The notes under the pieces are model-generated. The model searched no databases, was not told where the DNA came from, and saw only the letters and a list, made by a program, of their open reading frames with translations. DNA of 64,000 nucleotides, taken from assembly GCA_018672285.1 (NCBI GenBank), contig JABHGC010000225.1:7153-71152 (forward strand), given 5' to 3'. This document shows positions 1-37,466 of the stretch, piece after piece (position 1 is the stretch's first letter; each line of letters begins with the position of its first letter). The stretch is from Methylococcales bacterium. GTDB lineage: Bacteria > Pseudomonadota > Gammaproteobacteria > JABHGC01. Both the position numbers and the translations under genes were made by a program.

Positions 1-229
1 TTTGGGTTTGGTTTGCATTCCCTTCTAACCATGGAATCATCTTCGCCAAATACACAGGCTCACCACCGAGGACTAAACAGCGTAATGAGGCCAATTGTGC
101 CATTTCTGCTGTCGTCACAATGTGCTCATCGACCATTGAGTAAAAACTGCTCGGTGTAATATTTAAAATCGTGACATTGTGTTGGCTGATAAGTTGCAAC
201 ACACTCTTCGCTTTCGCAATTTCTTGTAA
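1..229 (-). other. Mid-A-domain sequence (post-A4, pre-A5) following the A10 motif directly with no T domain; continues off-window
   Basis: Translated ...SKEKHSLQEIAKAKSVLQLISQHNVTILNITPSSFYSMVDEHIVTTAEMAQLASLRCLVLGGEPVYLAKMIPWLEGN, which has the shape of the A4-to-A5 region (...ITVLNxTPS...LRxLxxGGE...) and not that of a PCP. Confidence 0.5.
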
Positions 230-6200: not shown

Positions 6201-9200
6201 CAACACACACCAATCCACTCTGGCGTGCTGTCTAATGCCATAATCGTATGAGCAATTTCATTCATACGATCATTTAATACTTGGTAACTCACCTGCTCAT
6301 TACCGGCAATGAGGGCCACTGCATTCGGAGACCGTTTCACATGCGCTAAGAATTGGTCATCTACCGATTCATATTCATCTAATTGACTAACCACTTGCTG
6401 AGAAGCAATTTGTGCTTGTGCCAACTCTGATTCTGTTAACCAGTTTAGTGCCGACACTTGTTCGGTGCCGCTTACAATTTGTTGGGCAACAAACTTAATC
6501 CGCTCTAGTAAATCTAATTGTTCAAAATGATCCGAGAATGACAATAAATTCAATTGCCAACCTGCATCCATAACCTTCACAATCATTTGTACTTGGTCTT
6601 CAGCAACAGGGGGAGAGTACTGTTGCAGTGCCTGATCCTGACCTAAGAAAGGCATTGTTGCTGCAAAATGGTAAAAGTTATAAAGAAAGGTCGTTCGAGC
6701 AGCAGGCAATAGCTGTTGCTGTACCATGACGGACAGATGACCGCGCTTTTTATCCATTTTTTGTAGCTGACGAACTTGATCAAATAATTCCGTTAAATTT
6801 AAGCTGCCATCAAACATGGCTTTGCTAAACAACACAGGCATTTGCTGATAATAACAACCCGCAGTCGCTAAGTGACCACGAGGCCTTCCAGAAAGCACTT
6901 CTGTGATGACAAAATCGTCTTCACTCCGACAAAAAACGGCCAGTGACAGTGCATACAATGATCGGAAGAACATGGTTGGTGTCATTCTGTTTTTACGACA
7001 AAATCGCTTAATGTCTTTAAATAAAGCACCTTCAATAACCAGATCAGATGCTTGATACTCCGATACAGCCGTACTGGTTGGAAAATCTAAGCGCTCTATC
7101 GTTTGTTTCTGCTGCTGCCAAAAATCGATGGCTTGAATTTTATCCACATCGTCGGCCGCAACGGTTACATAATCAAAGAAAGAGGTTGCTGACAACGGTA
7201 ATTCACAGCCCTCAGACAACGCCGTGTATTGAGCACAAATTTCTGAACAGACATGGGTCATGCCCACACCATCTAGAATAATATGTTGTGCCGCTTGCAA
7301 TAAATAATACTCATCGTCCCCTATTGCGATCACATAAAACTTAATCAGTGTCTCTTTATCAAGCTCATAAGCACGATAAGTAAATGCCTCAATCATTTTA
7401 TTGGCTTGAGCGTGTGAAGCATCACCTGCCGGTAACTCAATCACCTCAAACTCAATAGAGCGTTGCTTAGGAATACATTGATAAACAGGCTCAGCATAAG
7501 GCTGATCACAGCGTAGCAAGCGTGCACTTAAAATAGGATTATTATCCACTACCATCTGGCAAGCGCGTTGCCACACACTGGCACTAAATTCACCCTGTAA
7601 TTTCACCGCAAGACCAAGGCAGTTACGCGTGGTCTCTGGATTCACAACCGTATGAATATACAGATCCCGCTGTGTTGGCGTCAGCGGATAAACACCCAAA
7701 TAATCTTCTTGATTAAGACCAAGCACTTCATGTAAGGAGTGTTCGTTCAGCAAAGAAATTGTATTCAGAGGTTGCTCAATATTACCGACCATTTGCTCTA
7801 ATACAAACTGATAGTGCTGCATCATCACTTCAATGGTTTCAACATCGAATAAATCCGTATTAAATTCAACCAAAGCATTAAGCTGTTCACCATACTCAGA
7901 TACAGATAAAATCATATCGAACTTGGCTGTAGCCAACTCACTTTCTACCATCTCAAAAGACAACCCAGCCAGTTCAAACTCGGTATCCACAGAAGTTTCT
8001 AACGTGAAGCCCACTTGTGCTAATGGCGGGTATGACATTGAACGATCTTTGACCAAATCGTTCATAATCATCTCAATAGGGATATCTTGATGACCGTAAG
8101 CGGCCAGTGCACGCGTCCGAACAAGTTGTAAAAATTCAGATAAGGTTGGGTTGCCTGCCAAATCTGCTCGCATCAACACCACATTCACAAACATACCGAT
8201 CAATGGCTCTAATGATGCATGACTACGACCTGCAACCGGGGAGCCAACCACAACCGTCTCTTGACCTGCATATCGGCTCAATAAGATCTGATATGCCGCC
8301 AATAGATACATATACAGGGTGACACCATTGTCTTGTGCGTTTGCTTTAACCTGCTGTGAAAGTTCATCAGGCAACTGCAACCGATAACGCCGACCAATAT
8401 AGGTTTGAATATCGGGTCTTGGCCGATCAGTTGGTAAGGTCAGCTTCTCTGGTGCCCCGTCTAAAGTCTCTCGCCAAAACTGCAACATACCCGCAAGTAC
8501 ATCATCACTTAACCAGTCTCGTTGCCATATTGCATAGTCAACATACTGTACGGACAACTCAGGCAACATCGGTGATTGTTGCTGTGAATACGCTTGGTAA
8601 GCATGGCTGACCTCTTGAACCAAAACATTCACCGACCAACCATCAGACACAATGTGGTGCATGGTCAACATAACCACGTGCTCTTGTTCTGACAGCATCA
8701 CCAGTTTTGCCCGTAACAATGGGCCTTTGGTCAAATCAAAACTTAAAGCGGCATATTGCTCAGTAATGTTTTTAAGTTGTTGCTCTTTTAAATAGTCAGG
8801 CTGATCGGAGATATCTTCAACCGGAATGGTTTGAGACTTATAGTCATCAATGATTTGCACGGATTGGCTGTCAACCGTCGCAAAACGCGTTCTCAACGCA
8901 TCATGGCGTTTAATGACAAAATTGACTGATTTTTCTAACGAGACAATGTCTAACTTACCCGTTAAGCGGATGGCAGCAGGCATATTATAAACCGCATTAC
9001 CCGGCTGTAGCTGGTCTAAGAACAAAAGTCGTTCTTGAGCAAATGACAGCGGTATATTACTCGGTAATGTTTGCCTTTCAAGTACAGGCATGGGTACTTG
9101 GTCTACTTTTGCCAAAGCCAAATCAAGCTCATGCGCCAACTGTTGGATGGTTGGTTTTTCAAACACTTGGCGAACACTGAGTTCGACATTAAATCGCTCA

Positions 9201-12200
9201 CGTAATAATGCAATCATCCGTGTCACTAATAATGAATGCCCTCCAAGCTGGAAGAAATCATCGTTAACGCCAATCCGCTCATGTTTTAACAATTCACCCC
9301 ACAGGCTCGCGAGCAATTGCTCTGAATGGCTTTGAGGCGCAACAAAATTGTGCGCTTGTACTAGCGCTGATGGGTTGGGTAGTTTTGACCGATCTACTTT
9401 TCCATTCGGCGTTAATGGAAACTGTTCCAACGCAACACAATGGCTTGGCACCATATAATCAGGCAGTTGCTTGGCAACACTCAGATTAATCTCGTTCTCT
9501 TCTGCCGTGCCCACGGTATAAGCAATAATTTGCTCATCCCTAATCAGCACCAAACATTCACTCACACCCTCAATTTGGCCAATAACGGATTCAATTTCAC
9601 CTAATTCAATACGCAAACCACGCAGCTTAACTTGATGATCTGCCCGACCAACAAACAACATCTCCCCACGTTGGTTTTGTAGTACCCGGTCACCTGTTTT
9701 ATACATCTTACCGTGGCCGGTAATGTGGTTCTCAATGAAGCTTTCAGCAGTGGCAGCAGCATCCCCTAAATAACCACGCCCAACACCGAGACCTGCAATC
9801 ACCAACTCACCCACAACACCCATGGGTACAGGATTTAAATATTGATCCAACACATACAACTGAACATTATCATTGGGCAAACCAATTGGGATCGGCCCGG
9901 TTGCTGCCAACTCGTTGTCAGTCAACACATAAAATGCTGCGATATCCGTACACTCGGTCGGACCATAGGTATTCACGAGGGATACGGATTGCTGTGCTAA
10001 CCAAGGCTTAAGTTGGTTTAGCTGAATAGACTCCCCCCCTAAAAAGACCGTTTTCACAGTGGCCATTCGAGGCCAATACATTGGCTCGACGAGGGGGTAA
10101 AAAGCACTTGGCGCACTATTAATTCGTGTGACGCTATGCAATTCAATGGCTTGAGTGATTTGCTCTGGGTCGTAGAACTCTGTATCCGTAAAGCAAACAC
10201 AACCGCCACACCACAGTAACGCAAACAAGTTCTTTTGAGTTAAATCAAAACCAAGCGCACTGATGATTAACGTACTGTCGGTATCGGTAAAGGCAAACTC
10301 ATGACAATACCAGTGTAATAAATTCACAGCGCCCGCATGCTCTACACCAACCCCTTTTGGCTTGCCAGTAGAACCTGAGGTAAAGATCTGATAAATCAAT
10401 TCAGACCCGGTAAACACCAAATTGGGGTTCTCAACAGAGAACTCGGCAATATCGGTTAAACCATCTATTGCTAACCAAGCAGTTGTTTTATCCAGCTTAT
10501 CAATAACAGATTGGTCACTTAATACTGTTTTTATCGCCGCATTATCTAAAATATACTCAATTCGGGATTGTGGATAATTAGGGTCAATCGGCACATAACA
10601 ACCACCTGCTTTTAATACCGCCAATATCGCAACCAACACATTGGTTGAAGGAGGCAGACAAATGGCCACCGCTTGCTCAGGGTTTAATCCGTCCTTAATG
10701 AGCTTATGCGCTAATTGATTGGCACGCTCATTAAGCTGTTGATAGCTCAGTTTCGTATTCTGATAAGCGGTTGCAATATGATCAGGTGTTTTTTCGACTT
10801 GCTGCTCAAAACCTTGGTGCACTGCTGTGTAGGGTGCATCGGGTTGCTTTTCAGTCGCATTGTAGTCTGTGGTTAATGCCGCTAAAGCCGACTCACTGAG
10901 CATGTTGATTTGGCCAATAGAACCTGCTGCGTTATCCACCATCGCCTGCACTATATTTTGCAAGTGTTCAACCATATTGACAATGGTCGATGCCGCAAAT
11001 AAATCAGTGTTGTACTGTAAACTCCCCGTGATCTGGTCATCACTTTCAACAAGATTCAAGACCAACTCAAACTTAGCAATTCCCATGTCTAAGTCATACG
11101 GTTCTACCACAATATTCGGTAACTCAACGCGTTCATCACCTAAATTTTGCATTGAAAACATCACTTGGAAGACCGGCGACCGCGCCATATTACGTGGCAC
11201 ATTTAACACATCGACTAATTTATCAAACGGTAAATCCTGGTACTGGTAAGCGTCTACTGAGTCCTGTTTTAACTGCTGTAGTAATTCGCTAACACTGGGG
11301 TTAGCCGTAAAATCCGCACTGATCGCTTGAGTATTAACAAAGAAACCGATTAAAGGTGCCACTTCAGGATAATGCCGACCCGCTATGGGTGTGCCAACAG
11401 CAAATTGGTCTTGGTCGCTATATCGATGCAATAAAATTTGGAATGCGGCCATTAAGGTAATAAACAGCGTGCAGTCGTTATCCACAGCCAATTGTTTTAG
11501 CCCAGCGGATAATGATTCTGGCAGTACAATCGCTTGCTCAGCCCCATTAAACGTTTGATTAACTGGTCTTGGGAAATCAGTATTCAGTTCTAGCGCAGGC
11601 ACATCGGCGAGCTTTTGCGTCCAATATTGTATCTGCTCAGCAAGCACCTCCCCTTGTAACCACGCTCGTTGCCAATGTGCAAAATCTTTAAATTGGATAT
11701 CTAATGCGGGTGGCACACTTGGTATGCCTTGTACATCTGCACTGTAATACTCTATCAATTCTCTAACGAGCACACCAACAGACCAACCATCTGACACACT
11801 GTGATGCATGGTAACTAGTAATAAGACTTCATCCTCACCTGAACAGACAAAAGCACGAATCAAAGGCCCTTGTGTGAGTGAGAACGGTTTACTCGCTGCA
11901 GAGATGACCTGAGACTGATAGAACTGAGCGGCATCACCTTCCACATTCACACTAACAAAAGGAATATCTAGCGTTGTTTGTACCCGCTGAATCGGCACCC
12001 CATCCAGTGTGGTAAACGTGGTACGTAACACGTCATGACGAGCCACAATTGTATTTAATGCCCGCTCAATGGCCGCAATATTGACATCCCCTTTGAGCAT
12101 GACGGCAGCGGGAATATTATAAGCTGAGCTATTGGGCTCTAATTGATCAATAAACCACAATCGCTCTTGAGAGAAAGATAGTGGCGCATCCACCCCTTCA

Positions 12201-15200
12201 GCTAACGGTACAATTTCAGGTATATCTTGAGTATCGTTTTGATATTTGGCCACCGCTAATGCTAAAGCTTTAACCGTGGTCGACTCGAATAAGACTTTAA
12301 GTGGTATATCTACTTTGAACTGCGTTCTAATGGAAGCGATCAGTTGCGTCGCCAATAATGAATGGCCACCTAACGCAAAGAAATTATCTTCAATGCCCAC
12401 TTTACTGACCGATAATAACTGCGACCACATTTGACACAACTGAGCTTGCAGCTCATTTTCGGCCGCTACATATTGATCATGACTGGCTGAATCTGGTTTT
12501 GGTAATGCTTTTCGATCCACTTTACCATTACCCGTAAGCGGTAAAACAGGCAGTTGTAAAATGGATGAAGGCACCATATACGCAGGTAACTTATCGCCTG
12601 CAATGGTTTTTATTTGTTCAATATCCGCATCATGATTGGCAACCAAATAAGCGGTTAACCGTTGATCACCCGGAATATCCTCTCGGACAATAACGACAAC
12701 TTCTTCAACGCCTGCAATCTCAGCAATAACAGATTCAATTTCACCTAACTCTATCCGGAAACCACGAATCTTGACTTGAGAATCTATTCGACCTAAATAC
12801 TCAATACCACCATCTGGTAAATGCCTCGCTAAATCACCCGAACGATATAATTTACCGTCAGTAAACGGGTTCTCAACAAATTTCTCAGCGGTAAGCTCAG
12901 GGCGGTATAAATAGCCCCGTGCCAGACCTGCCCCGCCAACACACAACTCACCAGGAATGCCGATAGGCACTAATTGCAAATCACTATTGACGATATACAC
13001 TTGTAAATCAGGAATTGGCACCCCAATAATACTGCTGACAGCAGCCCCTTGTTTTGCCAGCGCCACATCTTCTGCGGTAACAACACGATAGGTCACATGT
13101 ACAGTAGTTTCAGTAATACCATACATATTCACTAAGGTTGGGAACTGATCACCATGCACATCAAACCAGCTGTCAAGCTGTTTAAAGTCCAGCGCTTCAC
13201 CACCGAAGATAACATAGCGTAAAGCCACCGCGTTCTCAGTATCACAATTGCTCAGCAGGTGCTGCTCAGCTCGGATTAGTTGGTAAAATGCTGATGGAGT
13301 CTGGTTGAGCACGGTGACTTTTTTATCCACCAATAACTGATAAAATGCCTCCGGCTCACGACTAATAAGGTAAGGCACCACAACCACTTCACCGCCATAG
13401 AATAAGCCACCCCATATTTCCCAAACTGAAAAATCAAACGCATACGAATGGAACAACGTCCATACGTCAGTCTCATCAAACTCATACCACTCATGCGTCG
13501 CATCCATTAAGCGAACAGCTTGTTGGTGCTCAATTTGAACACCTTTCGGTTTGCCAGTGGAGCCTGAGGTGTAAATCACATACGCGAGGTGTTCTGGTTG
13601 AATTAACAGATAGAGCGGTTCTGTTGATAACCCGCTTAAACGGTCGTCATCTAGCAACACAGTGTCCACTGATGATGCCAGCTGATCTTGTAAATCTTGC
13701 TCAGTAATCACGAATACGGCTTTCGCATCTTCAACAATAAATGCAATTCGATCATTAGGCGCACTAGGGTCTAATGGCAAGTAGCCTGCACCTGATTTGA
13801 GCACCGCTAAAATGGCAACAACAATATTGATAGAACGATTACAATACAAGCCGATCAAAACATCATTTGTTGCCCCTTTTTCAACCAATAGGCGAGCGAG
13901 TTGATTTGACTGTTGCTCCAGCTCGGCATACGTTAATTGGCCATATTCATCACTAACCGCAATGTTACCTGGGAAACGCTTGACACTAGATTCAAACCGA
14001 TCCACCAGTGTATCTGCCGTCGGATATGCTTGGTATGGGTATAAATGATTGATTTGATCACTTTGTTCTTGAAGTGTAATCCAAGGTAAATCATGTAACC
14101 TTTCCGCACCATCTAAACAGCGTTCTGTCAAAAGCACCAGGCGATCTAGCAAGCCTAAGTCATTAAAGTAATCACTATGGTAATGCAGGTTGAGTACCAC
14201 ATCGTCATAACCGGCATTAATGACGAGATGCACTTGGTCATCAAAAAATAACGGAATTTGTTGTTCTAATTCTGTTTTTTGACCTAAGAAATCTAACTCT
14301 GCTGCAAACCCATACAGGTTGAAGAAGAAATTAATTTTATCCGATGGCATGAGCTGGCGTTGTTCAAATACAGAGAAATTTTTATGCTCGCCCAAGGCCC
14401 GCTGATAGCCTCGTATAAAAGTGAAATAATCGGTTAGTAAAGTCTCACTATTGACTAAGTCTTTCGGAATAATAATCGGGGTTTGCTGATAATAACAGCC
14501 TATCCCTTTGAGGTGCTCTTTAACCCGGCCACCGACAATTTCATAAAAGCCGTAGTCTGAATCGGGTAAGCAGTATTCTTTTAATAATAAAGCATAGAGA
14601 GACTTCAATAATAACGATGGGGTTAACCGGTTTCGGCGACAATACTTCTTAATCGCAGCCCATTTTTCTTTATCAATAGAGGCTTGTACATGCACTTTTT
14701 CATGCTGGGTATTCGGCAACCATTGAAACGATAATGGCTCCACGCTGGCCGATTTTTCGCGCCAGTAGGTTTTTGTGTCCTGCAAATCAAAACTTTCAAT
14801 ATTATTTTTGACATAGCTTGGGAAAACATTCGGCAGTGGCTCATAGTCTTCATTAGCGAGCAAGCTACTCATGACCTTATTCAGCTCTAGCGCATGCAAC
14901 GTACCTGAGGTGCCATCCATTAATAAATGGTGTGATGAAATCACAAAGACATAATGCTCTTGGCTGATTTTAAGTAAGGCATTTCTATGCAGTGGGTCAA
15001 CATCAATGGCATACGGCTGATACACAAATTGATGAATCATATCGTCAACTTGCTTAGAGGTTAATCGGTCTTCTAAGTAGTCTATATAGGTAAAATCGAC
15101 TTCGTAGTCTTTTTTGTGCGCTTGATATACCGGTGCTAAATACGGTTTATTCACAGCATGTAACGTTGTTCTCAAGACTGGATGTGCATCGGCTAATTTT

Positions 15201-18200
15201 TGTAACGATTGTCGCCATACATCAGGGTCTGTTTCTTGATGGATGTGCAACACATAACCCAAACTGTTCATGGTGGTTTCTGGATTCATTTTTGAATCTA
15301 GATACAAATCACGCTGCGTGACGGTTAACGGTAAGATGGCGTCAAAGTCAGTCTCATCAATGCCTAATTCAGCGCACAGTTGCGCTTCTGGCATAACGGC
15401 TAACCAGTTAATATGAGAATCAGGTGTTTCTATGGCCGCATCCAGCAAGTGCAAATACGCTTGTGCCATGGTGGCAATGGTCTGTTCATCGAATAAATCG
15501 GTATTGTATTCCCATAACCCGCTATAGCCTTTCTGCCCTTCTAACACCATCAAGGTCATATCATATTTAGAACCACCTGCATCTAGCTCAACCGGTGATA
15601 ACACTAAGTCTGCTAAGGTAACCGTTTCAATTGGCGTATTTTGCAAAGCAAAGCCTACTTGAACAATGGGGCTATAGCTTAAGTTACGCTCAGGGCTTAA
15701 CGCTTCAATCACTTGTTCAAACGGCACATCTTGATGAGCAAGCGCTTGCAGAACAACGTCTTTTTGGCGTAACAACAACTCGGCAAACGTTGGGTTATTA
15801 TCCAGTGACGTTCGCATCACCACCCCATTAACGAAATAGCCCATTAATGCTTGCACGGCTTCTTGTTGGCGCCCTGCAATTGGGCTACCAATGACCATAT
15901 CGGTCATCCCAGAATACCTAGACAGCAAGACATTATAAGCAGCCAGTAACAGCATATAAGGCGTAATATTTTGTGCTTGACAGAACCCACTAATTTTATC
16001 TTGCAGCTGTGCCGGCACGTCAAAACGGTGCTGACACCCATTGAAGGTCATCTGTGCGGGTCTTGGCCGGTCTGTCGGTAAGTTCAGTAATGCCGGACTG
16101 TCTTTTAAGGTCTCAGTCCAAAAATCCAACTCTTGCTGCAGTCTGCCCCCAACCAACCATTTCCGCAGCCAAATAGAATAATCAACATACTGGACGGGCA
16201 GTGTGTGCAATTCAGCGGCGGTGCCTTCACTGAATGATTTGTACAAACTCGCCACTTCAGCAACCAGCAAACCAATAGACCAGCCATCTGAAATAATATG
16301 ATGCTGGTTGATGGACAGAATATGTGACGTTGCAGTGACTTTAATTAAACTAATGCGATACGCAAGCTCTGAGTTTAAATCGAAAGCGGTTCTCGCATCT
16401 TCAAGTACGGCTTGATTAGCGTCTACTTGAGGCTGCTCAGATTCACTTAAATCCAGGCTAAACCAAGGCAACTCAACAGTGTCTTGCACCAAGACTTGTG
16501 GAACCCCCTCATCATTACCAAACTGAGTGCGAAACACTTCATGCCGCTCAATGATGGCCTTAAAGCTGTTTTGTAACCATTCAACATTCAGTTGGCCAGT
16601 TAATTCAACGGCAAAATGGATGTTATAAATGGCCGACTGCTCATATTGCTGCACAAACCATAACCGCTCTTGTGCATACGACAGAGGCAATGCACCTTCT
16701 CGTTCAACAGCTACTAATGGTAATTCATCAACCCCCTTCTCAGACAATTGCGCGCAAAAATCGGCCAATACTGGGTGGTCAAAAATAACCCTAAGTGGTA
16801 ATGCCACATCAAAAATCTGCTTCACTTTAGCCGTCAATTGAGTCGCCAGTAATGAATGACCACCAAGCTCAAAAAATTGATCGGTTAAACCCACTTGCGC
16901 TTGCTGCAAAAGCTCCGACCAAAGCACTGCCATTTGCTGCTGTTCATCGGTTTCAGGTGCAACATAATCTTCGTTTGAACGCACTTGAAATTCAGGTGCA
17001 GGTAATGCTTTACGGTCTATTTTTTCATTCGGTGTGAGTGGAAACTCCGTCAAGCTAACAAAGGCAGCCGGCACCATATAATCCGGTATATCTTGCTTTA
17101 ATTGATTTCGCAGTTCATCCGCTGCAATATCCTCATTGTCAGGGATCACGTAAGCCACTAAACGCAGTTCGCCAGATGCGTCTGGGCGAGTCACAACAAC
17201 CGCTTCTTTTACACTGGTTTGCAGGCTTAATAACGCCTCAATTTCACCCAGCTCTACTCGGAAGCCACGCACTTTCACTTGGGTATCACTTCGTCCTAGG
17301 CACAACAAAACGCCATCCGGTAAATAACGTGCCAAATCCCCCGTTTTATAGATTCGGCCCGCCTGAGTAAACGGGTTATCAATGAAGACTTCTGCGGTTA
17401 AATCTGCACGGCCATGATAACCACGGGTAACACCGTCACCACCAATATACAGATCACCCACTGCACCGAGTGGTACAGGTTGTAGCAGCTCGTCTAAGAT
17501 ATAAATTGAGGTATTACCAATCGGCCGGCCAATGGTAATTTGCTCACCAGCAACCACTTTTGCAACGCTTGACCAAATCGTTGTTTCCGTAGGACCATAC
17601 ATATTCCACAGCTCGATTAATGGCTGTGCGGTTAATTGACTGGCCAGTGCCTCTGGTAGTGGCTCACCACCACACAGTACTTTAAGTGATTTTTTCACCT
17701 GCCAATTGGCATCCAATAACAGCTTCCACGTTGCAGGCGTCGCTTGCATAACGCTAATGGCTTGCTGCTCTATCGTTGTCGCCAGCAGTTCTCCATCCAT
17801 TGCCAAGTCCCGGTCAGCAATATAAACAGATGCCCCCGTAATTAACGGCAACCACAGCTCTAAGCCTGCAATATCAAATGACAATGAAGTCACAGATAAC
17901 AAGCGATCTTGTTGTTTAAACCCAGGTGTCTGGCGCATACCATACAAAAAGTTAAGCAACTGCTGATGCTCAACTTCAACCCCCTTAGGCTTACCGGTTG
18001 AACCGGACGTATAGATCACATACGCTAGGTTATTTGGCTGTACAGGCCAGTCAGAGTCAGAAATAGTCTGATCCAACACCTCATCCCAATCGGCATCGAT
18101 AAAGACGCGAGTTAAATTGTCTGGTCCTAATGTTGGCAAGTGCAGTTCGGTAACCAACACCGAGACACCACCATCTTCTAGCATGTAATCTAATCTGTCT

Positions 18201-21200
18201 TGTGGATACAGAGGGTCTAGAGGGACATAAGCACCACCGGCTTTAGCAATGGCAAGCATCGCAACCAACATACGGACAGAGCGCTCCACACACAAACCGA
18301 CCAATTGATCAGGCTGAACCCCAAGGCTCATTAAACGACTGGCCAATTGGGCACTTTGTTCATCAAGTTGACGATAGCTAATTGAAACCTTTGCATCAGC
18401 CGCAGCGATCTCTTCAGGGTATTTAAGTGCCTGCCCTGAAATAATTTGGACGATGGTTTTACTGCTAGGGTAATCTAACGACGTTTCATTCCAAGTCTCC
18501 AGCAACAAGCTTTGTTCTGTGCCAGTCAACATGGGTAACGCATAAACAGACTGTTCTGGCTGTGCTAAAAGGTGCCCTAACAGCTCAACAAAGTGCGCTG
18601 AAAAACGCTCGATGGTTTCCCTTGAAAATAAATCGGTTCGGTATTCAAAGCTGGCTTCATACACCCCTGATTTTTCTGCCAGCTCCAAGCTTAAATCATA
18701 TTTTGAAATTTTCTGATGAGCAGGTACTAACTTGACCTCAACATCAGACAATAACTGACTCACATCCACTTCTGGTGTGTTTTGCAAGGTAAATAAGGTT
18801 TGAAATACGGGTGTGTAACTTGTATCTCGTGTGACCTTAAGTGCATCTACCAATTTTTCAAATGGAATATCTTGATTGGCATACGCATCTAATGAAAACT
18901 GTCTGACCTGTTGAATTAAGGCATTAAAGCTCACCTGCTTTGCGACATCACCCCGGTAAGTCAATGTGTTAATAAACAGACCTAACATAGATTGTGTTTG
19001 CGCTTGTCCACGACCAGCAATCGGGCTACCCACGCAAATATCGTCCTGTCCGGCATAACGTGCCAGCATCACCATGTAGGCACTCATCAAGACCATAAAT
19101 GGCGTTGCCTCTTGCAGCTTAGCATGCAGGTTAATCGCATCATGTAAGCTTGCAGGTAAGGTAAAGTGTAACAACTCACCTTGGTACTGCTGCACTGCAG
19201 GTCTTGAGAAATCCGTGGGGAGATTTAACGTGGTACTTCCTGCCAACGCTTTTTGCCAAAATGCAATTTGCCCGGTTAAACGCTCACCAGACAGCCAGTC
19301 ACGTTGCCATAATGCATAATCTGCGTACTGCAACTCAGGCATTTCAAGCGCCTGCTCACCTTCAGTTTGCTTCTGCTGGTAAAGTGAAATCCACTCTGAA
19401 ATAAACACGCCTAAAGACCAGCCATCAGCAATAATATGGTGCATCACAAACACCAACACGGACTCTTCTTCATCTTCTGACATCAGGTAACGATTCACAG
19501 AAAATAAAGCTGGTTGCTGCAAATCAAAGACTTGTCGTGCACATTGATCAATCCGACTGCGTAGCGTTTGCTCAGGCAGAGCCATTGCCGACAGATCTTC
19601 AGTCGCAATGGTTACGCTCAGTTCAGGATAGATCACCTGCATTGCAACCCCATCAACGGATTCGAAGCCCGTTCTGAGCACTTCATGTTTCGCGATTAAT
19701 TGGTTTAATGCCCAAGTTAAATCTGCAGTATCAACCTTGCCTCTCATGCGTAATGCACCTGGCATATTGAACACATGCCCATCGTCATTAAAGTTTTGCA
19801 AGAACCACAAACGTTCTTGTGCAAATGACAATGGGATGCTGTCTGGCCGTTGCTGGTTGGCCATATCAACAATCGCATCTGCGGATTTCGCTTGTTCTAA
19901 TGCTCTTGCAAGTGCTTCAACCGTGGGATTTTCAAACAATGTCCGCAACTGAATTTGAGCGTGATAGTCCGCTTCCACTTTGGCAATCAGTTGTGTGGCT
20001 AACAAGGAATGCCCACCTAAGGTAAAGAAATTATCCAGCAAGCCTACTTTATTAACTTGCAGCAACTGGCTAAATAACGTAGCAACGTCTTTCTCCAGTG
20101 CTGTTCGTGGTGCCACGTAGCCTTGTCCTGAAGCCTCAGGGTCAGGTAGTGCCTTACGATCCACTTTGCCATTAGGTGTGAGTGGGTATTTTTCCAACAC
20201 AACAATATGATTGGGCACCATATATTCTGGTAATGCTTGGCGACAAGCTAATGCCATATCGGTTGGGTTTGCACTGCCGATGACATAAGCGACTAATTGG
20301 TCTTTCTTAACAATAACCAAGCTCGCATCAACACCCTCACCATAGCTGATGACGTTTTCTATTTCCCCTAATTCAATTCTCAACCCACGTAATTTCACTT
20401 GGTGGTCAATTCGGCCAACAAAGATGATTTGCTGGTCGACATCCAAACGGACTAAATCACCCGTTCGGTACATTTTACCTTCATTGCGGAATGGATCAGG
20501 TATAAACACCTTATCCGTTTGCCCATCATCATTAAGATAACCTCGGCCAACCCCTCTTCCGGCAATATAAAGCTCACCAACCACACCACGAGGGACCGGT
20601 TGACGAGCGGCGTTTAAGATATAGAGGTACACATTGTCATTTGCTTGGCCAATAGGCATGGGTTGATTGGCGTAATCATTGGCGTTATTCAGGGTAAAGC
20701 TAGCGGCAATATCAGTACACTCTGTCGGCCCATACATATTCACCAATTTGGCATCATGGGTCGTTAACCAGACTCGTAGCTGGTTCATTTGAATCGGCTC
20801 ACCACCAAAAAACAAGGTACGCAGTGAGTTAAGTTGACCTGCTGTTTCTTGCTCGACTAAAGGGTAAAAGGCACTTGGCGCACAATTTAATAAGCTGATA
20901 TCAAATGCCTTAATGGCACTCAGTATCGCTTTAACATCATAATGGGCAGACCCGGTGAAACACACTGAGCCACCTTGCCATAATGCCGCAAATAAATTCT
21001 TTTGCGTTAAATCAAAACCTAAAGCACTGATAATTAAGCTGTGGTCAGTGTCTGACATTGCATATTCACGGGTATACCACTGGAGTAAGTTCGTCATACC
21101 AGCGTGTTCAACGCCCACACTCTTCGGCTCTCCAGTCGAGCCTGACGTAAAGATTTGATACAGCAGTTGGGTATCGAGGATATTGCGATCTGGGTTACTC

Positions 21201-24200
21201 GTATCGCCATTTAACCATAACGCGGCATCGTCCATGGCAAGCCATATATCATTATCAGATTGAAAAACAGCTAACGCACTGTGACTCAAAACGGCAGACA
21301 TGTCTGACTTATCAATGATGTATTGTATTCTTGCAGCAGGGTAATTCGGGTCTATCGGTACATAACACCCACCCGCTTTAAGCACCGCTAAAATAGCAAC
21401 AAGTACATCAGGTGATGGCTCAATACAAATGCCCACAGCAGACTCTGGCTGCAACCCCTGATTCAGTAAATAATGTGAGAGCGTATTGGCCTTCTCATTT
21501 AAAACAGCATAGCTATAGGCAACCCCAGGCATTTGAGTGGCGATGGCATCGGGTGTTTTTTGAACCTGCGCTTCGAACCCTTGATGCACGGTTGCAAAGG
21601 TAGAATCTTGTGGGTTGATACCGCCATTCCAAGACCATTGCTCAGGGGTGGCTTCATCATTGAGCAATAAATCAAAGTCACCCACGGTTGTAACACCGGC
21701 CACGAATTGTTCTAGCAACTGTTTAAAGCGAGGTAATAAGTCTAGGCTTGAGAAGTTCGCATCATTAAAACGCAAGCTTAGCATCAAACCATCGTCCAGA
21801 GTTTTGATAATGAAGAGAATATCTTGTTCGCCAACTTGTGCATTACGCTGAATCGTTTTAATCGATACATCACTGTGTTTCAGTTTAATATCGTCAGCTA
21901 GCTCAAAAAAGTTATACGAAAACTTCAAACGCCCTTGCGGGATAGCTTGCTGCTGGGCAAAGTTTGAAATATCTTGTTTGCTTCCCAGTGTTCGTACGAA
22001 TTGCTTAACGTGGGTAAAGTAATCCCCTATGGGCGTATCGTCTTGTAATAAATGATTGGGGAAAATGACCGGAACTTGCTGATAATAACAGCCTAATGTT
22101 GAGTTGTGCTTTTTCACTCGCCCACTGAGTAACTCATAAACCACAAAGTCACTACTGGTTCGGCAGTATTCTTTCAAGACAATGCCGTAAATGGCTTTCA
22201 ACAACAGTGCCGGTGTCATTCGCTGGCGACGACAGACTTTTTTAACCTCTAACCAAAACTCACCATCGATTAGCTGTTCTTCTTCAACCGTTTTACCCTG
22301 TTCCACTGCCAATGGTACAAAATCCAATGGCTCAACATTCGCGGTTGCATTTTTCCAGTAGCGTAATGTTTCTTCTCGGTCGAAACGTGCCGCATTTTGT
22401 TCAACATATTCACGGAACAAACAGTCGATAGAGTGATATTGTTTGCCTTGCATTAAGGCTTCATACGTCCAGCATAATTGCTGAGCATAAACACGAACAC
22501 CAATACCATCGAGCATCACATGATGGATGCCCATCGCGATAACCGTGCGATCTTTTAACAAGTACACTTGATGACGTATTAATGGCCCTTCACCTATCGC
22601 ATAAGGGCGATAGATAAAATCACTGGACTGCTGATAAATTTTGTCTATATCGGCACTGCCACGACGGCAGTCAAATACGTCATACTCAAACACCGAATCG
22701 TTACTGACACATTGATAAGCCGTTGCCAAATAAGGCGCCGTTGAGGCTTTTAGTTGAACTCGGAGGACGGGCTGATCATCATGAACTTGGGCAATGGCTT
22801 TTTTCCAGGTTTCCTCATCAATCGCCATCGGTAAATCCAGGATGTAACCGATGGAATGGTTGATGTTATCAGGTGCCAAAGTACATGCGACAAAAATATC
22901 TCGCTGCATTGTCGTTAATGGCATTGCCGCCATATACTGTTCAGCTTCAATGCTTAAATCTTGGTACAACTCATCGATAGAGACAAAACGATATTGCTCA
23001 ATTTCAGCTTCAGGCTTGTCTACAAAATGTTGTAACAGTCGTTCAAAGTGCACCATCATCTGCTGCACTGTTTCAGGCTTAAATAAGTCTGTGTTGAATT
23101 CAAGCTCACCAACCAAACCTTCTGATTCAGTCAGCATTAAAATCATGTCGTATTTTGCCGTGCCATTGTCAAGCTTCAGTGGTTCTACTTCGACACCAGG
23201 CAAGGTTAAGTCTGCAGTCGGGACATTTTGCAAGGCAAAACCCACTTGCGCGATGGGTGGGTAGCTTAAATTACGCTCAGGCTGAAGTGTCTCAACCAAC
23301 AGCTCAAAGGGTATTTCTTGGTGGGCAAACCCAGATAAAGCGGTATCTCTGACAGATTTTAAGAACTCAACCCCTGTCATGTTGTCATTGATTTTTGAGC
23401 GCATCACAATGGCATTGACAAAAAAGCCAATTAAATCTTCGGTTTTATCAATGTTGCGCCCTGCGATTGGCGAGCCAACACAGATATCTTCTTGCCCACT
23501 ATAGCGATACAACAATACGTTGAAAGCAGCCAACACAGCCATATATAAAGTAATATTTTGCTGTCGGCATAATTCATGTAAATTATCGACCAACTCGGTG
23601 CCAATTTGGAAGCGGTACACTTGACCATTAAAGGTTTGTACAGGTGGCCTGGGGTAGTCCGTAGGTAAGCTTAAAAATGCAGGCGCACCCGTGAGCTGTT
23701 TCGTCCAATAAGCCAGCTGGGTTTCTAAAACCTCTCCTTGATACCAAGTCCGCTGCCAATGTGCGTAATCTGCATACTGAACGGAGAGTTCAGGTAGTTT
23801 TACGGCTCTATTATCATAAAGCGCACTGTAAATTTCTGTGAATTCACGGATAAATAACCCGACTGACCAACCGTCCGAAATAATATGATGAAAGTTCACG
23901 GCGAGAATAAAGTCAGCGTCTGAATTTTTAACCAACATGACACGAACTAAGCGGTCTTGTTCTAGGTTAAAGGGTTGCCGTGAAAAATGTGATAACTGAC
24001 TGTTTAATTCATCCTCAGACGCTACCTCAAGGTGCTGTATGTCTAACGAACAATGATCATCAATCAGTTGCTGAGCGGCACCATCTACAGATTTAAACCG
24101 GGTTCGCAAACTTTCTTGCCGAGTCAGTAATGCATTAAAGGCTTGCTGCACTAGGTCAACATCAATGTCACCTTTGATGGCTACCGCACCAAACATATTG

Positions 24201-32905: not shown

Positions 32906-33181
32906 AATTATCCAGTAACTTATTAATTTTTAAAACATAGTTCCAATATATAAAATAGTCGAATATCTACATTGGGTGGGGGGACATACTTAGAAATTCG
33001 CCAAATTTAAACATAAGCAACTGTTTATTGGTCTTATTTTTATATCATTATGATACTGCTGACGCAGATAAAATACCATCGCAAAAACACATCAAAGTTG
33101 CCTATTTTCTATGTGTTTAGGTAGCAATTTCTCACAACGATGGCCATACTCTATAGTATTTGCGCCATAAAGTGACTTTGC
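32906..33181. promoter_or_regulatory. AT-rich divergent intergenic region between the NRPS start and the kinase-like gene; promoters not mapped
   Basis: 277-bp non-coding AT-rich spacer between divergently oriented start codons. It contains a short palindrome, atcattatgat, at about 33047-33057. Confidence 0.3.
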
Positions 33182-36725: not shown

Positions 36726-37466
36726 TTATAACACAGACACAACTGAGGTTTTCCAGCAGCACACATTCGCATCATTCATTTGGCGCTCATATGCTAATGC
36801 GGCTTTAAACCCCAACGACCCCATATCAATAGAAGCCATTCCCCAACGCTGCGTCTCCTCAGGGAACTCAGCATCATTCAGCAATGCAGCGTCTACACCC
36901 ACTGACACATCAAAACTTTCCAACCCTCTCATCAACCCATCACCATGTGCTTTTACATAAGCCTCTTTACGCGTCCAACAGCGAAAAAAGGCATTTTTCT
37001 GATCATCAGGATCGCACGATAGTATCGCTGCATGCTCTTGTTTTGAAAAAAATCGTTGAGACAAACTAGACCATTCCACCCGCCTATCTTGCTGCTCTAA
37101 ATCCACCCCTAACCGCCTATCTAACGAAAAAGCAAACAAAGCTTGCCCATGTGAGTGAGACACATTAAATTGCAGCGCATTATTCACAAGAGCAGGTTTA
37201 CCCTGGCTTAAATATGAAAACTCAACAGATTTCGCAGGCATCGCTAAATAGTGACCAAGCAAACTACGCAACACGCCTCTGGCTACGGCAAAATGCATTT
37301 GATCTTGACGCCGGTAAAAGCGTTTAGCCCTAGTCAGCTCAGTCTCGTTTAGCACCTGTAAAAATCGTGACTCAAGCGCCAAATCTACCTCTAACCCCAA
37401 TGACCAAACATGAACCTCATCATCAGCAAGTGTTACAGGAAGTGTCGGTTGTAACCAGTGGGTCAT
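36726..37466 (-). CDS. 4'-phosphopantetheinyl transferase, Sfp/EntD type
   Basis: Signature motifs FNVSHSHG, GVDLE and WTRKEAYVKAHG, about 246 aa. Convergent with the hydrolase gene and about 3.8 kb from the NRPS start. Confidence 0.8.
   Translation of the reverse strand: MTHWLQPTLPVTLADDEVHVWSLGLEVDLALESRFLQVLNETELTRAKRFYRRQDQMHFAVARGVLRSLLGHYLAMPAKSVEFSYLSQGKPALVNNALQFNVSHSHGQALFAFSLDRRLGVDLEQQDRRVEWSSLSQRFFSKQEHAAILSCDPDDQKNAFFRCWTRKEAYVKAHGDGLMRGLESFDVSVGVDAALLNDAEFPEETQRWGMASIDMGSLGFKAALAYERQMNDANVCCWKTSVVSVL

What the first reader, a model, noticed from the sequence alone, without database searches (positions are those of the whole stretch)
6400..22950. Three paralogous extra condensation-like domains (C') with non-canonical active sites inserted between C and A, with no intervening carrier domain
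Modules 3, 5 and 7 each carry an extra C' domain, at about 21600-22950, 14050-15370 and 6400-7730. In each, a normal C domain (MHHxxSDGWS, with C6/C7 motifs HQEIPFE / RNLSYPP verified for module 3) is followed directly by a second domain of about 450 aa with condensation-like fold features (...GRVKEH..IGCYYQQ.P.I...LNLHYH...). The active-site motifs of these second domains are HHVMLDGIG, HHLLMDGTS and QHIILDGVG (the last has the first His replaced by Gln). T-C-C'-A with no T between C and C' is not the standard E-C or Cy arrangement. Candidate roles are a side-chain-modifying C (for example dehydration or beta-lactone/ester formation), a trans-recruiting X-like domain, or an inactive structural spacer. 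The conservation of all three copies argues for function.
Basis: partly seen in the sequence, partly recalled or inferred. Interest (0 to 1): 0.7.

Follow-up and report, generated by a model that had tools for sequence, protein, structure and literature searches.

The report
Extra condensation domains in homoserine/threonine modules
A giant peptide-making enzyme from a marine methane-oxidiser relative has three modules with two condensation domains in a row; this module type recurs in many uncultured marine bacteria, almost only where the amino acid has a reactive side chain, and nobody yet knows its chemistry.

Summary
One minus-strand ORF (window 2-32929, 10,976 aa, open at the window start) encodes FAAL-ACP-C-A-T followed by seven more modules. 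Modules 3, 5 and 7 are T-C-C'-A-T.

- **What C' is:** a full-length, confidently folded condensation-superfamily domain with its catalytic His and Asp intact. It is not an E, Cy, X or C_modAA domain. By sequence it sits nearest DCL-type C domains.
- **It is a family:** 134 of the 150 best database representatives carry it. It is preceded by an LCL-type C in 158 of 172 cases and followed by an A domain at the canonical C-to-A spacing.
- **Substrate link:** the A domain after C' has a homoserine, Thr, Ser, Dab or Orn code in 156 of 161 cases, against 60 of 176 in C'-less modules of the same proteins (Fisher p = 5e-38).
- **Best model (inferred, about 0.35):** C' performs a second acyl transfer on the carrier-bound residue, as the embedded chain-initiating C domain does in icosalide synthetase.
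- **Known parallels:** tandem C domains in Pseudomonas keanumycin-type synthetases, stated to be uninvestigated, and in megapolipeptin MgpC.
- **Module 8:** it carries a truncated C' remnant.

No product is known for any member.

The parts
2..32905 (-). Giant NRPS gene, open at the window start. The likely ATG is at 32905; the stop-free frame runs 32929-2. Domain order: FAAL-ACP-C1-A1(Gln-like)-T | C-A(Gly)-T | C-C'-A(Hse)-T | C-A(Gly)-T | C-C'-A(Thr)-T | C-A(Hse)-T | C-C'-A(Hse)-T | C-[A fragment]-[C' remnant]-A(Thr)...
22994..24274 (-). C3, the first C of the module 3 tandem. LCL-type, motif HHIISDGWS, all core motifs intact.
   Evidence: PDB best hits are Txo2, Txo1 and TycC6.
21590..22942 (-). 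C'3, the extra condensation-superfamily domain. Motif HHVMLDGIG at 22525.
   Evidence: AF2 model pLDDT 86.6, pTM 0.82. Foldseek TM-score 0.73-0.80 to solved C domains.
20165..21577 (-). A3, Stachelhaus code DLKNFGMDIK (homoserine-type).
   Evidence: Code assignment from PMC7524897 and PMC12283262.
15380..16693 (-). C5, the first C of the module 5 tandem. LCL-type, motif HHIISDGWS.
14030..15340 (-). C'5, the extra condensation-superfamily domain. Motif HHLLMDGTS at 14932.
   Evidence: 100% identical to the C' of P0037 (Methylococcales MAG).
12521..13996 (-). A5, code DFWNIGMVHK (Thr).
7739..9055 (-). C7, the first C of the module 7 tandem. LCL-type, motif HHIVSDGWS.
6410..7708 (-). C'7, the extra condensation-superfamily domain. 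Motif QHIILDGVG at 7288: the first His is Gln, but the catalytic second His and the Asp are kept.
4940..6337 (-). A7, code DLKNVGSDVK (homoserine-type).
3284..4603 (-). C8, LCL-type. Slightly closer to the tandem-first C3/C5/C7 (40-43% identity) than to most of the single C domains (35-41%).
2582..3187 (-). N-terminal fragment of an A domain (model positions 1-212, includes TSGSTGKPK; the code begins DLKD).
1841..2545 (-). C' remnant: C-terminal lobe only (model positions 194-429), no HHxxxDG. 23-28% identical to the other C' copies.
   Evidence: No Pfam hit.
284..1771 (-). A8b, a full A domain, code DFWNIGMVHK (Thr), 60% identical to A5.
29282..32929 (-). Lipo-initiation region: FAAL (aa 1-620), ACP (aa 669-746) and C1 (HHIAVDMWS).
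36726..37466 (-). Sfp-type phosphopantetheinyl transferase, probably marking the upstream edge of the cluster.

Best explanation
**Shown.** C' is a catalytically competent member of a distinct clade of the NRPS condensation-domain superfamily, nearest by sequence to DCL-type domains.
- It defines a recurrent module type, T(n-1)-LCL-C'-A-T(n).
- C' occupies the normal C position next to the A domain.
- The A domain almost always loads a residue with a side-chain nucleophile: homoserine, Thr, Ser, Dab or Orn.

**Inferred mechanism.** The carrier-bound residue is acylated twice.
- The LCL domain passes the upstream chain from T(n-1).
- C' catalyses a second acyl transfer onto the same T(n)-bound residue from a donor supplied in trans (acyl-CoA, acyl-ACP or another carrier).
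- One acyl group would end on the alpha-amine and the other on the side-chain O or N, giving an ester or isopeptide branch point, or a backbone that runs through the side chain.
- This is the logic demonstrated for icosalide synthetase module 3 (LCL-C_I-A(Ser)-T). The difference here is that the amino acid's own side chain would supply the second nucleophile.

**Predicted scaffold.** Acyl-Gln-Gly-Hse*-Gly-Thr*-Hse-Hse*-Thr..., with an extra acyl or branch at the three starred residues.

**Not determined.** Which domain uses which nucleophile, and what the second donor is.
For: **Architecture and paralogy:**

**Fold:** AF2 pLDDT 86.6; Foldseek TM-score 0.73-0.80 to solved C domains.

**Active site under selection:** second His 171/175, Asp 175/175, Gly 159/175.

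**Family-wide module type**
- 134 of the 150 best 50%-identity representatives carry C'.
- C' is preceded by a C in 158 of 172 cases and followed by an A in 162 of 172.
- Median C'-to-A gap is 22 aa against 23 aa for canonical C-to-A.

**Substrate association**
- 156 of 161 A domains after C' have a nucleophilic side-chain code, against 60 of 176 in C'-less modules of the same proteins. Odds ratio 60, p = 5e-38.
- The DLKN code is homoserine per PMC7524897 and PMC12283262.
- The association also holds in distant taxa: Brevibacillus laterosporus (Dab) and Taibaiella (Orn).

**The upstream C is a specialised lineage:** its nearest neighbour in another protein is also tandem-first in 151 of 157 cases.

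**C' can head a protein:** it opens a protein in 13 cases (C'-A-T). In L001 that gene follows housekeeping genes directly.

**Module 8 has lost the catalytic lobe of C' while the ORF stays open**, which suggests that elongation rests on the LCL domain.

**Experimental precedent:** IcoA module 3 is an LCL domain directly followed by a chain-initiating C. That C-A-PCP tridomain N-acylates Ser-PCP, and mutating its His to Ala abolishes the reaction (PMC6553374; PMC10510592).
Against: - **No product is known for any member,** so no extra acyl group has been observed.
- **C' is not close to the starter C domains with solved structures.** RzmA-Cs scores 48 bits over the N-lobe only, and CDA-C1 36 bits. 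The best matches are DCL domains: BacC 154, PvdL C3 110, McyB C1 109, TycB1 100 bits.
- **No dedicated second donor recurs.** No free-standing carrier or acyl-activating enzyme is found repeatedly in the window or in related loci.
- **Exceptions to the side-chain rule exist.**
  - Two C'-A(Gly) modules, both with low-scoring C' domains.
  - C'-A(DAFFLGIVFK, Ile/Val-like) at the head of proteins in three related MAGs.
  - A few C'-T modules without an A domain.
- **Known parallels show no extra acyl group.** In the Pseudomonas keanumycin group and in megapolipeptin, no extra acyl group is described at the residue made by the tandem-C module in the passages read here. If those second C domains are homologous to C', which I could not test, the model is weakened.
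- **The clade structure of the first C could simply reflect inheritance of whole modules.**
Confidence: 0.35

Rival explanations
1. C' is a non-catalytic or only weakly catalytic guard or scaffold. It shields Hse-, Dab- and Orn-thioesters, which readily self-cyclise to a lactone or lactam, or it positions T(n). All bond formation is done by the LCL domain.
For: - About 80% of C' modules load Hse, Dab or Orn. Their gamma or delta nucleophiles form 5- or 6-membered rings with an activated carboxyl (established chemistry; my own knowledge).
- Lys, which would need a 7-membered ring, is absent from the codes after C'.
- Module 8 keeps only the C-lobe of C', next to its A domain.
Against: - The catalytic His is 98% conserved and the Asp 100%, which a pure scaffold would not need.
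- About 19% of C' modules load Ser or Thr, which do not self-cyclise readily.
- Many Hse modules in the same proteins, including window module 6, work without C'.
Confidence: 0.15
2. C' is a cyclodehydrating partner (Cy-like division of labour). The LCL domain makes the amide and C' closes the side chain onto the preceding carbonyl. This would give oxazoline (Ser/Thr), dihydro-oxazine (Hse) or tetrahydropyrimidine (Dab) rings.
For: - It explains the side-chain nucleophile rule without a second donor.
- Split duties between tandem Cy domains are known in VibF, and Dab-derived tetrahydropyrimidines occur in pyoverdines (my own knowledge).
- PvdL C3, whose acceptor is Dab, is among the best profile matches at 110 bits.
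Against: - C' keeps HHxxxDG, not the DxxxxD motif of Cy domains.
- The profile score to the bacillamide Cy domain is only 45 bits.
- Orn would require a 7-membered amidine.
- The PvdL C3 score is no better than that of other DCL domains.
Confidence: 0.12
3. C' controls stereochemistry or iteration. It would either epimerise or edit the residue, or let the module act twice. Both are suggested by megapolipeptin MgpC, where a C-C-A-T module is proposed to add L-Thr and then L-allo-Thr.
For: - MgpC is C-C-A-T with a Thr-specific A domain and yields Thr plus allo-Thr (PMC11411415).
- The giant ORF has no E domains at all.
- C' is nearest to the DCL group, to which dual C/E domains are related (the relation to dual C/E domains is my own knowledge).
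Against: - Epimerisation would not be restricted to OH/NH2 side chains. No Leu, Val or Phe modules carry C' in the 150 proteins.
- The downstream C4 is LCL-type, not DCL-type.
- E-domain similarity is low (TycA E 42 bits, GrsA E 36 bits).
- No second HH motif was seen in the C' N-terminal consensus (PLT.MQRD.Y); dual C/E domains carry one there (my own knowledge).
- Homology between C' and the MgpC second C was not tested.
Confidence: 0.1
4. C' is a docking platform for a trans-acting tailoring enzyme (X-domain or interface-domain logic). Candidates are a hydroxylase, sulfotransferase, carbamoyltransferase or glycosyltransferase acting on the carrier-bound side chain.
For: - Precedents are the X domain, which recruits P450s, and the interface domain, which positions Asp/His beta-hydroxylases (cited in PMC12230676; details from my own knowledge).
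- One related soil cluster encodes a sulfotransferase and a free-standing C-like protein.
- The downstream end of this cluster lies outside the window.
Against: - No partner recurs across loci. The genes embedded between NRPS genes are MFS exporters or GGDEF proteins.
- The catalytic motif is conserved, unlike in X domains.
- A domains after C' are not Asp- or His-specific.
- No TauD domain is fused.
Confidence: 0.08
5. C' is a dehydrating C_modAA-type domain that makes Dha or Dhb.
For: About 19% of C' modules load Ser or Thr, including window module 5.
Against: - 126 of 161 load Hse, Dab or Orn.
- C_modAA domains act as the only C domain downstream of the Ser/Thr carrier. C' lies upstream of the A domain of its own module.
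- Profile scores are 41 bits to AmbE C_modAA and 71 bits (N-lobe only) to McyA.
Confidence: 0.04

Closest known systems
Icosalide synthetase IcoA module 3 (Burkholderia gladioli): LCL domain directly followed by an embedded chain-initiating C domain, then A(Ser)-PCP
   Same: - Identical domain order, T-LCL-C-A-T, with no carrier between the two C domains.
- The A-proximal C is the unusual one.
- The loaded residue carries a side-chain OH.
- The A-proximal C is catalytically active and its His is essential (PMC6553374).
   Different: - IcoA has one such module. The window ORF has three plus a remnant, and relatives have up to three per protein.
- IcoA's second C falls in the starter (C_I) clade. 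C' scores best against DCL domains and only weakly against RzmA-Cs.
- In icosalide the ester goes to the 3-OH of the newly added fatty acid, so no amino-acid side chain is required. Here the side-chain nucleophile is the family's defining correlate.
- Direct sequence comparison with IcoA could not be done.
'Tandem C_L domain' of Pseudomonas syringomycin-class synthetases (keanumycin KeaB module 1, thanamycin, nunamycin)
   Same: - Gammaproteobacterial lipopeptide NRPS with two consecutive C domains in one module.
- The peptides are rich in Ser, Dab, Hse and Thr.
- The authors state the role of the duplication has not been investigated (PMC9897216).
   Different: - One tandem per pathway.
- Both domains are called LCL-type by the authors, whereas C' is not LCL-like.
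- Homology of their second C to C' was not tested. No Pseudomonas sequence surfaced among the 150 best hits or the 39 genome loci.
Megapolipeptin MgpC first module (C-C-A-T, Paraburkholderia)
   Same: A C-C-A-T module with a Thr-specific A domain (PMC11411415).
   Different: - It is proposed to add two Thr units iteratively (L-Thr, then L-allo-Thr).
- It belongs to a PKS-NRPS hybrid context.
- No sequence comparison was possible.
DCL-type condensation domains (BacC, PvdL C3, McyB C1, TycB1, SrfA-C)
   Same: These are the best sequence-profile matches to C' (86-154 bits, against 31-55 bits for LCL domains). They share the same fold.
   Different: - DCL domains follow an E domain and are the only C of their module. 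C' follows an LCL domain, there is no E domain anywhere in the ORF, and two of the three upstream residues are Gly.
- C' has its own signature (PLTxMQRDxY, CRxxxxTP, GRxKxH, GCYYQQxP, FxYNFYxF).
- Relative to canonical C domains it lacks 5 residues at the C4 region and 9 residues at the C7 region.
Interface (I) domain of siderophore NRPSs (Reitz et al. 2019)
   Same: A non-canonical extra member of the condensation superfamily inside an NRPS.
   Different: - As I recall, and as the cyanochelin C preprint describes (a C domain plus TauD at a protein's C-terminus), the I domain sits next to a fused TauD-type beta-hydroxylase in Asp or His modules.
- Here there is no TauD domain and no Asp or His code, and C' is followed by an A domain.
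- The original paper was not available.

Membership tests
NRPS condensation-domain superfamily (Pfam PF00668) | Significant match to the Condensation profile | tested here: met
   106-117 bits against a cut-off of 30.6 for all three C' copies.
NRPS condensation-domain superfamily (Pfam PF00668) | HHxxxDG active-site motif with the catalytic second His | tested here: met
   HHVMLDG, HHLLMDG and QHIILDG. Family-wide: second His 171/175, Asp 175/175.
NRPS condensation-domain superfamily (Pfam PF00668) | Two-lobed chloramphenicol-acetyltransferase-like fold | tested here: met
   AF2 pLDDT 86.6, pTM 0.82. Foldseek E = 1e-24 to 1e-28 and TM-score 0.73-0.80 to solved C domains.
Epimerisation (E) domain | Located directly after the carrier domain of the residue it acts on, and closest in sequence to E domains | tested here: not met
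   C' follows a C domain, not a T domain. The C' profile scores 42 bits (TycA E) and 36 bits (GrsA E) against 86-154 bits for DCL domains.
Heterocyclisation (Cy) domain | DxxxxD motif in place of HHxxxDG | tested here: not met
   HHxxxDG is retained. 45 bits to the bacillamide Cy domain.
X domain (glycopeptide NRPS) | Degenerate active site lacking the catalytic His, sited in the last module, recruits P450s | tested here: not met
   The His is conserved. C' lies in internal modules followed by A domains. 37 bits to the teicoplanin X domain. No P450 in the window.
C_modAA (dehydrating condensation domain) | Sole C domain downstream of a Ser/Thr module, clustering with AmbE, McyA and similar domains | tested here: not met
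   C' is the second of two C domains and lies upstream of its own A domain. 126 of 161 modules load Hse, Dab or Orn. 41 bits to AmbE C_modAA.
Interface (I) domain | Adjacent to a fused TauD-type beta-hydroxylase, in Asp or His modules | tested here: not met
   No TauD domain in the ORF. A codes after C' are never Asp or His. The definition is from memory; no I-domain sequence was available for comparison.
Starter / chain-initiating C domain (Cs, C_I) | Clusters with starter C domains | tested here: inconclusive
   Only two starter structures were available. RzmA-Cs scores 48 bits (N-lobe only) and CDA-C1 36 bits, below the DCL scores. Within the window, C' is marginally closer to the functional starter C1 (68 bits) than to the LCL domains (39-51 bits). 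No reference phylogeny could be built.
Starter / chain-initiating C domain (Cs, C_I) | [quoted passage not shown] | tested here: inconclusive
   13 of 172 C' domains open a protein. In L001, L045 and L046 that gene directly follows ilvC. The donor cannot be determined from sequence.
Icosalide-type embedded-initiation module (LCL-C_I-A-T) | LCL domain directly followed by a second, active C domain, then A-T | tested here: met
   compared with PMC6553374.
Icosalide-type embedded-initiation module (LCL-C_I-A-T) | The second C N-acylates the loaded residue with a 3-hydroxyacyl thioester, and the first C then forms an ester | not testable with these tools
   Needs an enzyme assay or a product structure.
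DCL condensation domain | Accepts a D-configured donor generated by an upstream E or dual C/E domain | tested here: not met
   No E domain anywhere in the ORF. The upstream residue is Gly in modules 3 and 5. DCL domains are nevertheless the nearest by sequence.
Pseudomonas syringomycin-class 'tandem C_L' module | The second C is homologous to the KeaB, thanamycin or nunamycin second C | not tested
   No sequence of these synthetases could be retrieved. Only the literature description is available.

The most novel reading that the evidence does not exclude
C-C' modules are a general NRPS device for building through side chains. C' caps or primes the alpha-amine (or the side chain) of Hse, Thr, Ser, Dab or Orn with a trans-delivered acyl unit, while the specialised LCL domain joins the upstream chain to the other nucleophile. 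Assembly lines such as this one would then make multiply branched or multiply lipidated depsi- or isopeptides. Examples would be a peptide with three extra acyl tails, or a backbone running through homoserine gamma-esters. That would be an undescribed natural-product class from marine Gammaproteobacteria, and it would also explain the unexplained tandem C domains of Pseudomonas lipopeptide synthetases.
Probability: 0.25. Interest if true: 0.85.

Novelty: new variant of a known kind. Interest (0 to 1): 0.6.

Why it matters
Tandem condensation domains have been noted in a few NRPSs. They have been dissected biochemically in only one case I could find (icosalide), and the keanumycin authors say explicitly that the duplication is uninvestigated.

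This window shows the arrangement is not a one-off:
- It is a coherent, widespread module type with its own domain clade.
- Its active site is conserved.
- It has a very strong substrate rule: residues with a side-chain nucleophile, mostly homoserine.

That rule turns an open question into a testable one and gives a sequence signature for finding such modules.

If C' adds a second acyl group, structure prediction from such clusters is currently wrong at every C' module. The products, from largely uncultured marine Gammaproteobacteria, would be a new kind of branched or multi-tailed peptide. It would also offer an engineering handle for site-specific side-chain acylation on an assembly line.

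Tried and rejected
**Searches that failed or added little**
- The search for homologous proteins with C'3 alone and with an alignment of Thr-type C' domains returned nothing useful (0 and 1 hits), although the exhaustive search found 12,436 hits. I abandoned that route to named or cultured relatives.
It was redone with the three window copies. That restricts the scan to close relatives, so absence of Pseudomonas or Burkholderia there means little.
- Reitz et al. 2019, which defines the interface domain, is not held.
- Cluster look-ups named only two sources, a Methylococcales MAG and Pelagibaculum spongiae.

**Ideas tested and dropped**
- Interface domain plus beta-hydroxylase was my first idea. 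I rejected it: no TauD domain, no Asp codes, no hydroxylase in the window or in 40+ loci.
- The first C as a disguised E domain that epimerises the upstream residue. Rejected: it has full C motifs, is LCL-like, and the upstream residue is Gly in two of the three modules.
- A docking domain between C and C' in P0016. Rejected: the TubC_N domain is at residues 5-53, before the first C.
- A conserved trans partner. None was found. Genes embedded between NRPS genes are MFS exporters or a GGDEF protein. Flanks of P0002, P0016, P0038 and P0003 share nothing consistent.
- Clusters that start with C'-A(Ser)-T could not be followed downstream, because every assembly breaks just after the gene.

Full report
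**1. What is in the window**

A single stop-free frame on the minus strand runs from 32929 to 2 (10,976 codons) and leaves the window at its start.

Motif scans, Pfam, self-BLAST and HMMs built from the window's own domains give this order:

FAAL-ACP-C1-A1-T1 | C2-A2-T2 | C3-C'3-A3-T3 | C4-A4-T4 | C5-C'5-A5-T5 | C6-A6-T6 | C7-C'7-A7-T7 | C8-(A fragment)-(C' remnant)-A8b...

Stachelhaus codes, extracted by alignment to GrsA, are as follows:

| A domain | Code | Assignment |
|---|---|---|
| A1 | DAWQCGLIDK | Gln-like |
| A2 | DILQLGMVWK | Gly |
| A3 | DLKNFGMDIK | homoserine-type |
| A4 | DILQLGMIWK | Gly |
| A5 | DFWNIGMVHK | Thr |
| A6 | DLKNFGTDIK | homoserine-type |
| A7 | DLKNVGSDVK | homoserine-type |
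| A8b | DFWNIGMVHK | Thr |

- The DLKN code is the homoserine code. DLKNFGSDVK was called Hse for the laxaphycin/scytocyclamide synthetases, whose products contain Hse (PMC7524897). DLKNVGSDVK and DLKNLGTDVK are listed as Hse-activating (PMC12283262).
- The Dab assignment of DIWE(L/M)TADDK is from my own knowledge and was not verified here.
- Upstream of the gene lie a histidine kinase, an alpha/beta hydrolase and an Sfp-type PPTase, then housekeeping genes. The downstream end of the cluster is outside the window.
- The C' domains of two partial proteins from a 'Methylococcales bacterium' MAG (MBT5230033.1 and MBT5228779.1) are 100% identical to C'3 and C'5. The window therefore comes from that organism or a very close relative.

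**2.

- C'3, C'5 and C'7 lie at 22942-21590, 15340-14030 and 7708-6410.
- They are 29-36% identical to each other (E about 1e-70), but only about 20% identical to the canonical C domains of the same protein (E = 1e-6 to 1e-15).
- They pass the Pfam Condensation threshold at roughly a third of the score of a canonical C domain.
- There is no carrier domain between C and C'.
- A fourth, truncated copy, consisting of the C-terminal lobe only with no active-site motif, sits in module 8.

**3. What kind of domain C' is**

- *Fold.* An AlphaFold2 model of C'3 is confident (pLDDT 86.6, pTM 0.82). It superposes on every solved C domain at TM-score 0.73-0.80.
- *Sequence neighbours.* A profile of 12 diverse C' sequences scores best against DCL-type domains (identities from the entry descriptions):

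| PDB target | Type | Bits |
|---|---|---|
| BacC second C-like domain | DCL | 154 |
| PvdL C3 | DCL | 110 |
| McyB C1 | DCL | 109 |
| TycB1 | DCL | 100 |
| SrfA-C | DCL | 86-93 |
| LCL domains | LCL | 31-55 |
| RzmA starter C (partial) | starter | 48 |
| Bacillamide Cy | Cy | 45 |
| TycA E | E | 42 |
| AmbE | C_modAA | 41 |
| Teicoplanin X | X | 37 |
| TqaA | C_T | 28 |

- *Conclusion from the scores.* C' is not an E, Cy, X, C_modAA or C_T domain. It is a separate clade nearest the DCL group.
- *Signature.* PLTxMQRDxY, HHxxxDGx(G/S), CRxxxxTP, GRxKxH, GCYYQQxP, FxYNFYxF. Relative to canonical C domains it has short deletions at the C4 and C7 regions.
- *Active site.* Across 175 family members the catalytic second His is kept in 171, the Asp in all 175, the Gly in 159 and the first His in 149. 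The Gln of C'7 is therefore a tolerated variant at the less critical first position, not a sign of inactivation.

**4. It is a family, and the module is the unit**

- An exhaustive HMMER search of 1.84 billion representatives gave 230 hits at E <= 1e-30.
- Among the best 150, 134 carry a full C' (172 domains).
  - It is preceded by a canonical-type C in 158 cases and stands at a protein N-terminus in 13.
  - It is followed by an A domain in 162.
- The C'-to-A gap (median 22 aa) equals the canonical C-to-A gap (23 aa). The C-to-C' gap is short (median 14 aa). C' therefore occupies the normal C position on the A domain.
- The upstream C is LCL-type, like the single C domains, with intact motifs.
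- The upstream C nevertheless forms its own lineage. Its nearest neighbour in a different protein is another tandem-first C in 151 of 157 cases, and single C domains pair with single C domains in 149 of 169. This may reflect specialisation, or simply inheritance of whole C-C'-A-T modules.
- A genome scan found 39 loci. Nearly all are in marine Gammaproteobacteria MAGs (Pseudomonadales, Ketobacter, Moraxellaceae, Spongiibacteraceae, Cellvibrionales, BD1-7, 'Methylococcales'). One is in Brevibacillus laterosporus and one in Taibaiella chishuiensis.
- A cultured carrier is Pelagibaculum spongiae.

**5. The substrate rule**

- In the 150 proteins, the A domain after C' carries a Hse (96), Dab (20), Thr (19), Ser (11) or Orn (10) code in 156 of 161 cases.
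- In C'-less modules of the same proteins the figure is 60 of 176. Odds ratio 60, Fisher p = 5e-38.
- No Leu, Val, Phe, Asp or Gln module there has a C'.
- The rule holds in the distant Brevibacillus (Dab) and Taibaiella (Orn) loci.
- C' subclades track the A specificity.
- Exceptions:
  - two Gly modules with low-scoring C' domains;
  - an Ile/Val-like code after N-terminal C' in three related MAG loci;
  - a few A-less C'-T modules.
- The rule is one-way. Many Hse, Thr and Ser modules, including window module 6, lack C'.

**6. Mechanism**

*Shown:*
- the architecture;
- the fold;
- the conserved catalytic residues;
- the position of C' on the A domain;
- the substrate rule.

*Inferred:* two condensation active sites serve one carrier-bound residue that has two nucleophiles, so the simplest reading is two acylations.

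*Precedent:* in IcoA module 3 an LCL domain is directly followed by a chain-initiating C. That C-A-PCP tridomain N-acylates Ser-PCP with a 3-hydroxyacyl thioester, His-to-Ala abolishes the reaction, and the LCL domain is proposed to then esterify the upstream chain (PMC6553374; PMC10510592).

*Points that fit this model:*
- C' can head a protein, and in one cluster it follows housekeeping genes directly.
- Module 8 has lost the catalytic lobe of C' while the 10,976-codon frame stays open. This suggests the LCL domain carries elongation and C' an auxiliary step.

*Points against it:*
- C' is nearer DCL than starter domains.
- No dedicated donor recurs in the loci.
- No product is known.
- The tandem-C modules of keanumycin-type synthetases and of MgpC are not described as adding an extra acyl group at that residue in the passages read here. 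Their homology to C' is untested.

I put this model at about 0.35. The rivals are a guard against lactone or lactam self-cyclisation, cyclodehydration, stereochemical or iterative roles, recruitment of a tailoring enzyme, and dehydration. They are weighed in the rivals section. Dehydration and the X-like or inactive readings are the least compatible with the data.

**7. Comparison with what is known**

- Tandem C domains are reported for icosalide (characterised), for the Pseudomonas syringomycin class ('not yet investigated') and for megapolipeptin (iteration proposed).
- I found no description of the following in the papers I could search:
  - a distinct C' clade;
  - its multiplicity per synthetase;
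  - its dominance in homoserine-rich assembly lines of marine Gammaproteobacteria;
  - the side-chain-nucleophile rule.
- That search is limited to open-access text.
- I therefore file this as a new variant of a known kind, of moderate to high interest.

Noticed in passing
window 4603-2 (minus strand), module 8: Module 8 looks like a recombination scar that stays in frame. The order is: C8, an A-domain N-terminal fragment (model positions 1-212), the C-terminal lobe only of a C' (positions 194-429), a full Thr A domain 60% identical to A5, and then another A-like piece (positions 216-275) where a T domain is expected. Similar 'partial A + full A' scars occur in P0076 and P0088, and P0097 shows C - A stub (80 aa) - C' - A.
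   Followed up: partly
window 34705-36717 (+) and 36726-37466 (-): A 670-aa alpha/beta hydrolase (chlorophyllase/PETase-like) and an Sfp-type PPTase sit just upstream of the NRPS start. An esterase next to a possibly ester-containing product may be relevant.
   Followed up: no
P0012, P0024, P0033, P0071, L011, L020; also P0034, P0052, P0098, L029, L041: A-less modules sit next to C-C' modules: C-T-C-C'-A(Hse)-T and C-C'-T-C-C'-A(Hse)-T. One homoserine A domain may load two carriers, which would give Hse-Hse units.
   Followed up: no
L047 (B. laterosporus B9, NZ_CP011076.1 948110-989399); also L021: The Brevibacillus cluster starts FAAL-ACP | KS-ACP-aminotransferase-C-A..., which is beta-amino fatty acid priming of the iturin type. 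Several of its NRPS ORFs end with the N-lobe of a C domain while the next ORF begins with a C-lobe, so the genes appear to be split inside C domains. PLSDB holds no annotation for this stretch.
   Followed up: partly
L049 (soil metagenome, cluster of P0003): A cluster with three C-C' modules also encodes a sulfotransferase-like protein, a free-standing 399-aa C-like protein, a type II thioesterase, an EntS-like MFS exporter, an RND pump and a class III aminotransferase.
   Followed up: no
L010, L012, L014, L015, L017, L019 (between NRPS genes): An EntS-like MFS exporter gene (MFS_1/MFS_3) lies between or next to the NRPS genes in several marine loci (Pfam-checked in L010, L012, L014, L015). 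It is often followed by a protein that starts directly with C'.
   Followed up: partly
window 32929-29282 (minus strand): The assembly line is lipo-initiated in cis by FAAL-ACP. Its first C domain has the motif HHIAVDMWS (Gly replaced by Met). This C1 is the canonical-type C domain closest to C' within the protein (68 bits).
   Followed up: partly
whole window: The window is identical over C'3 and C'5 to two partial proteins of a 'Methylococcales bacterium' MAG (MBT5230033.1, MBT5228779.1). No locus near-identical to the window appeared among the 39 loci of the species-representative genome scan (best identity 33%), so the source genome was not recovered there.
   Followed up: partly
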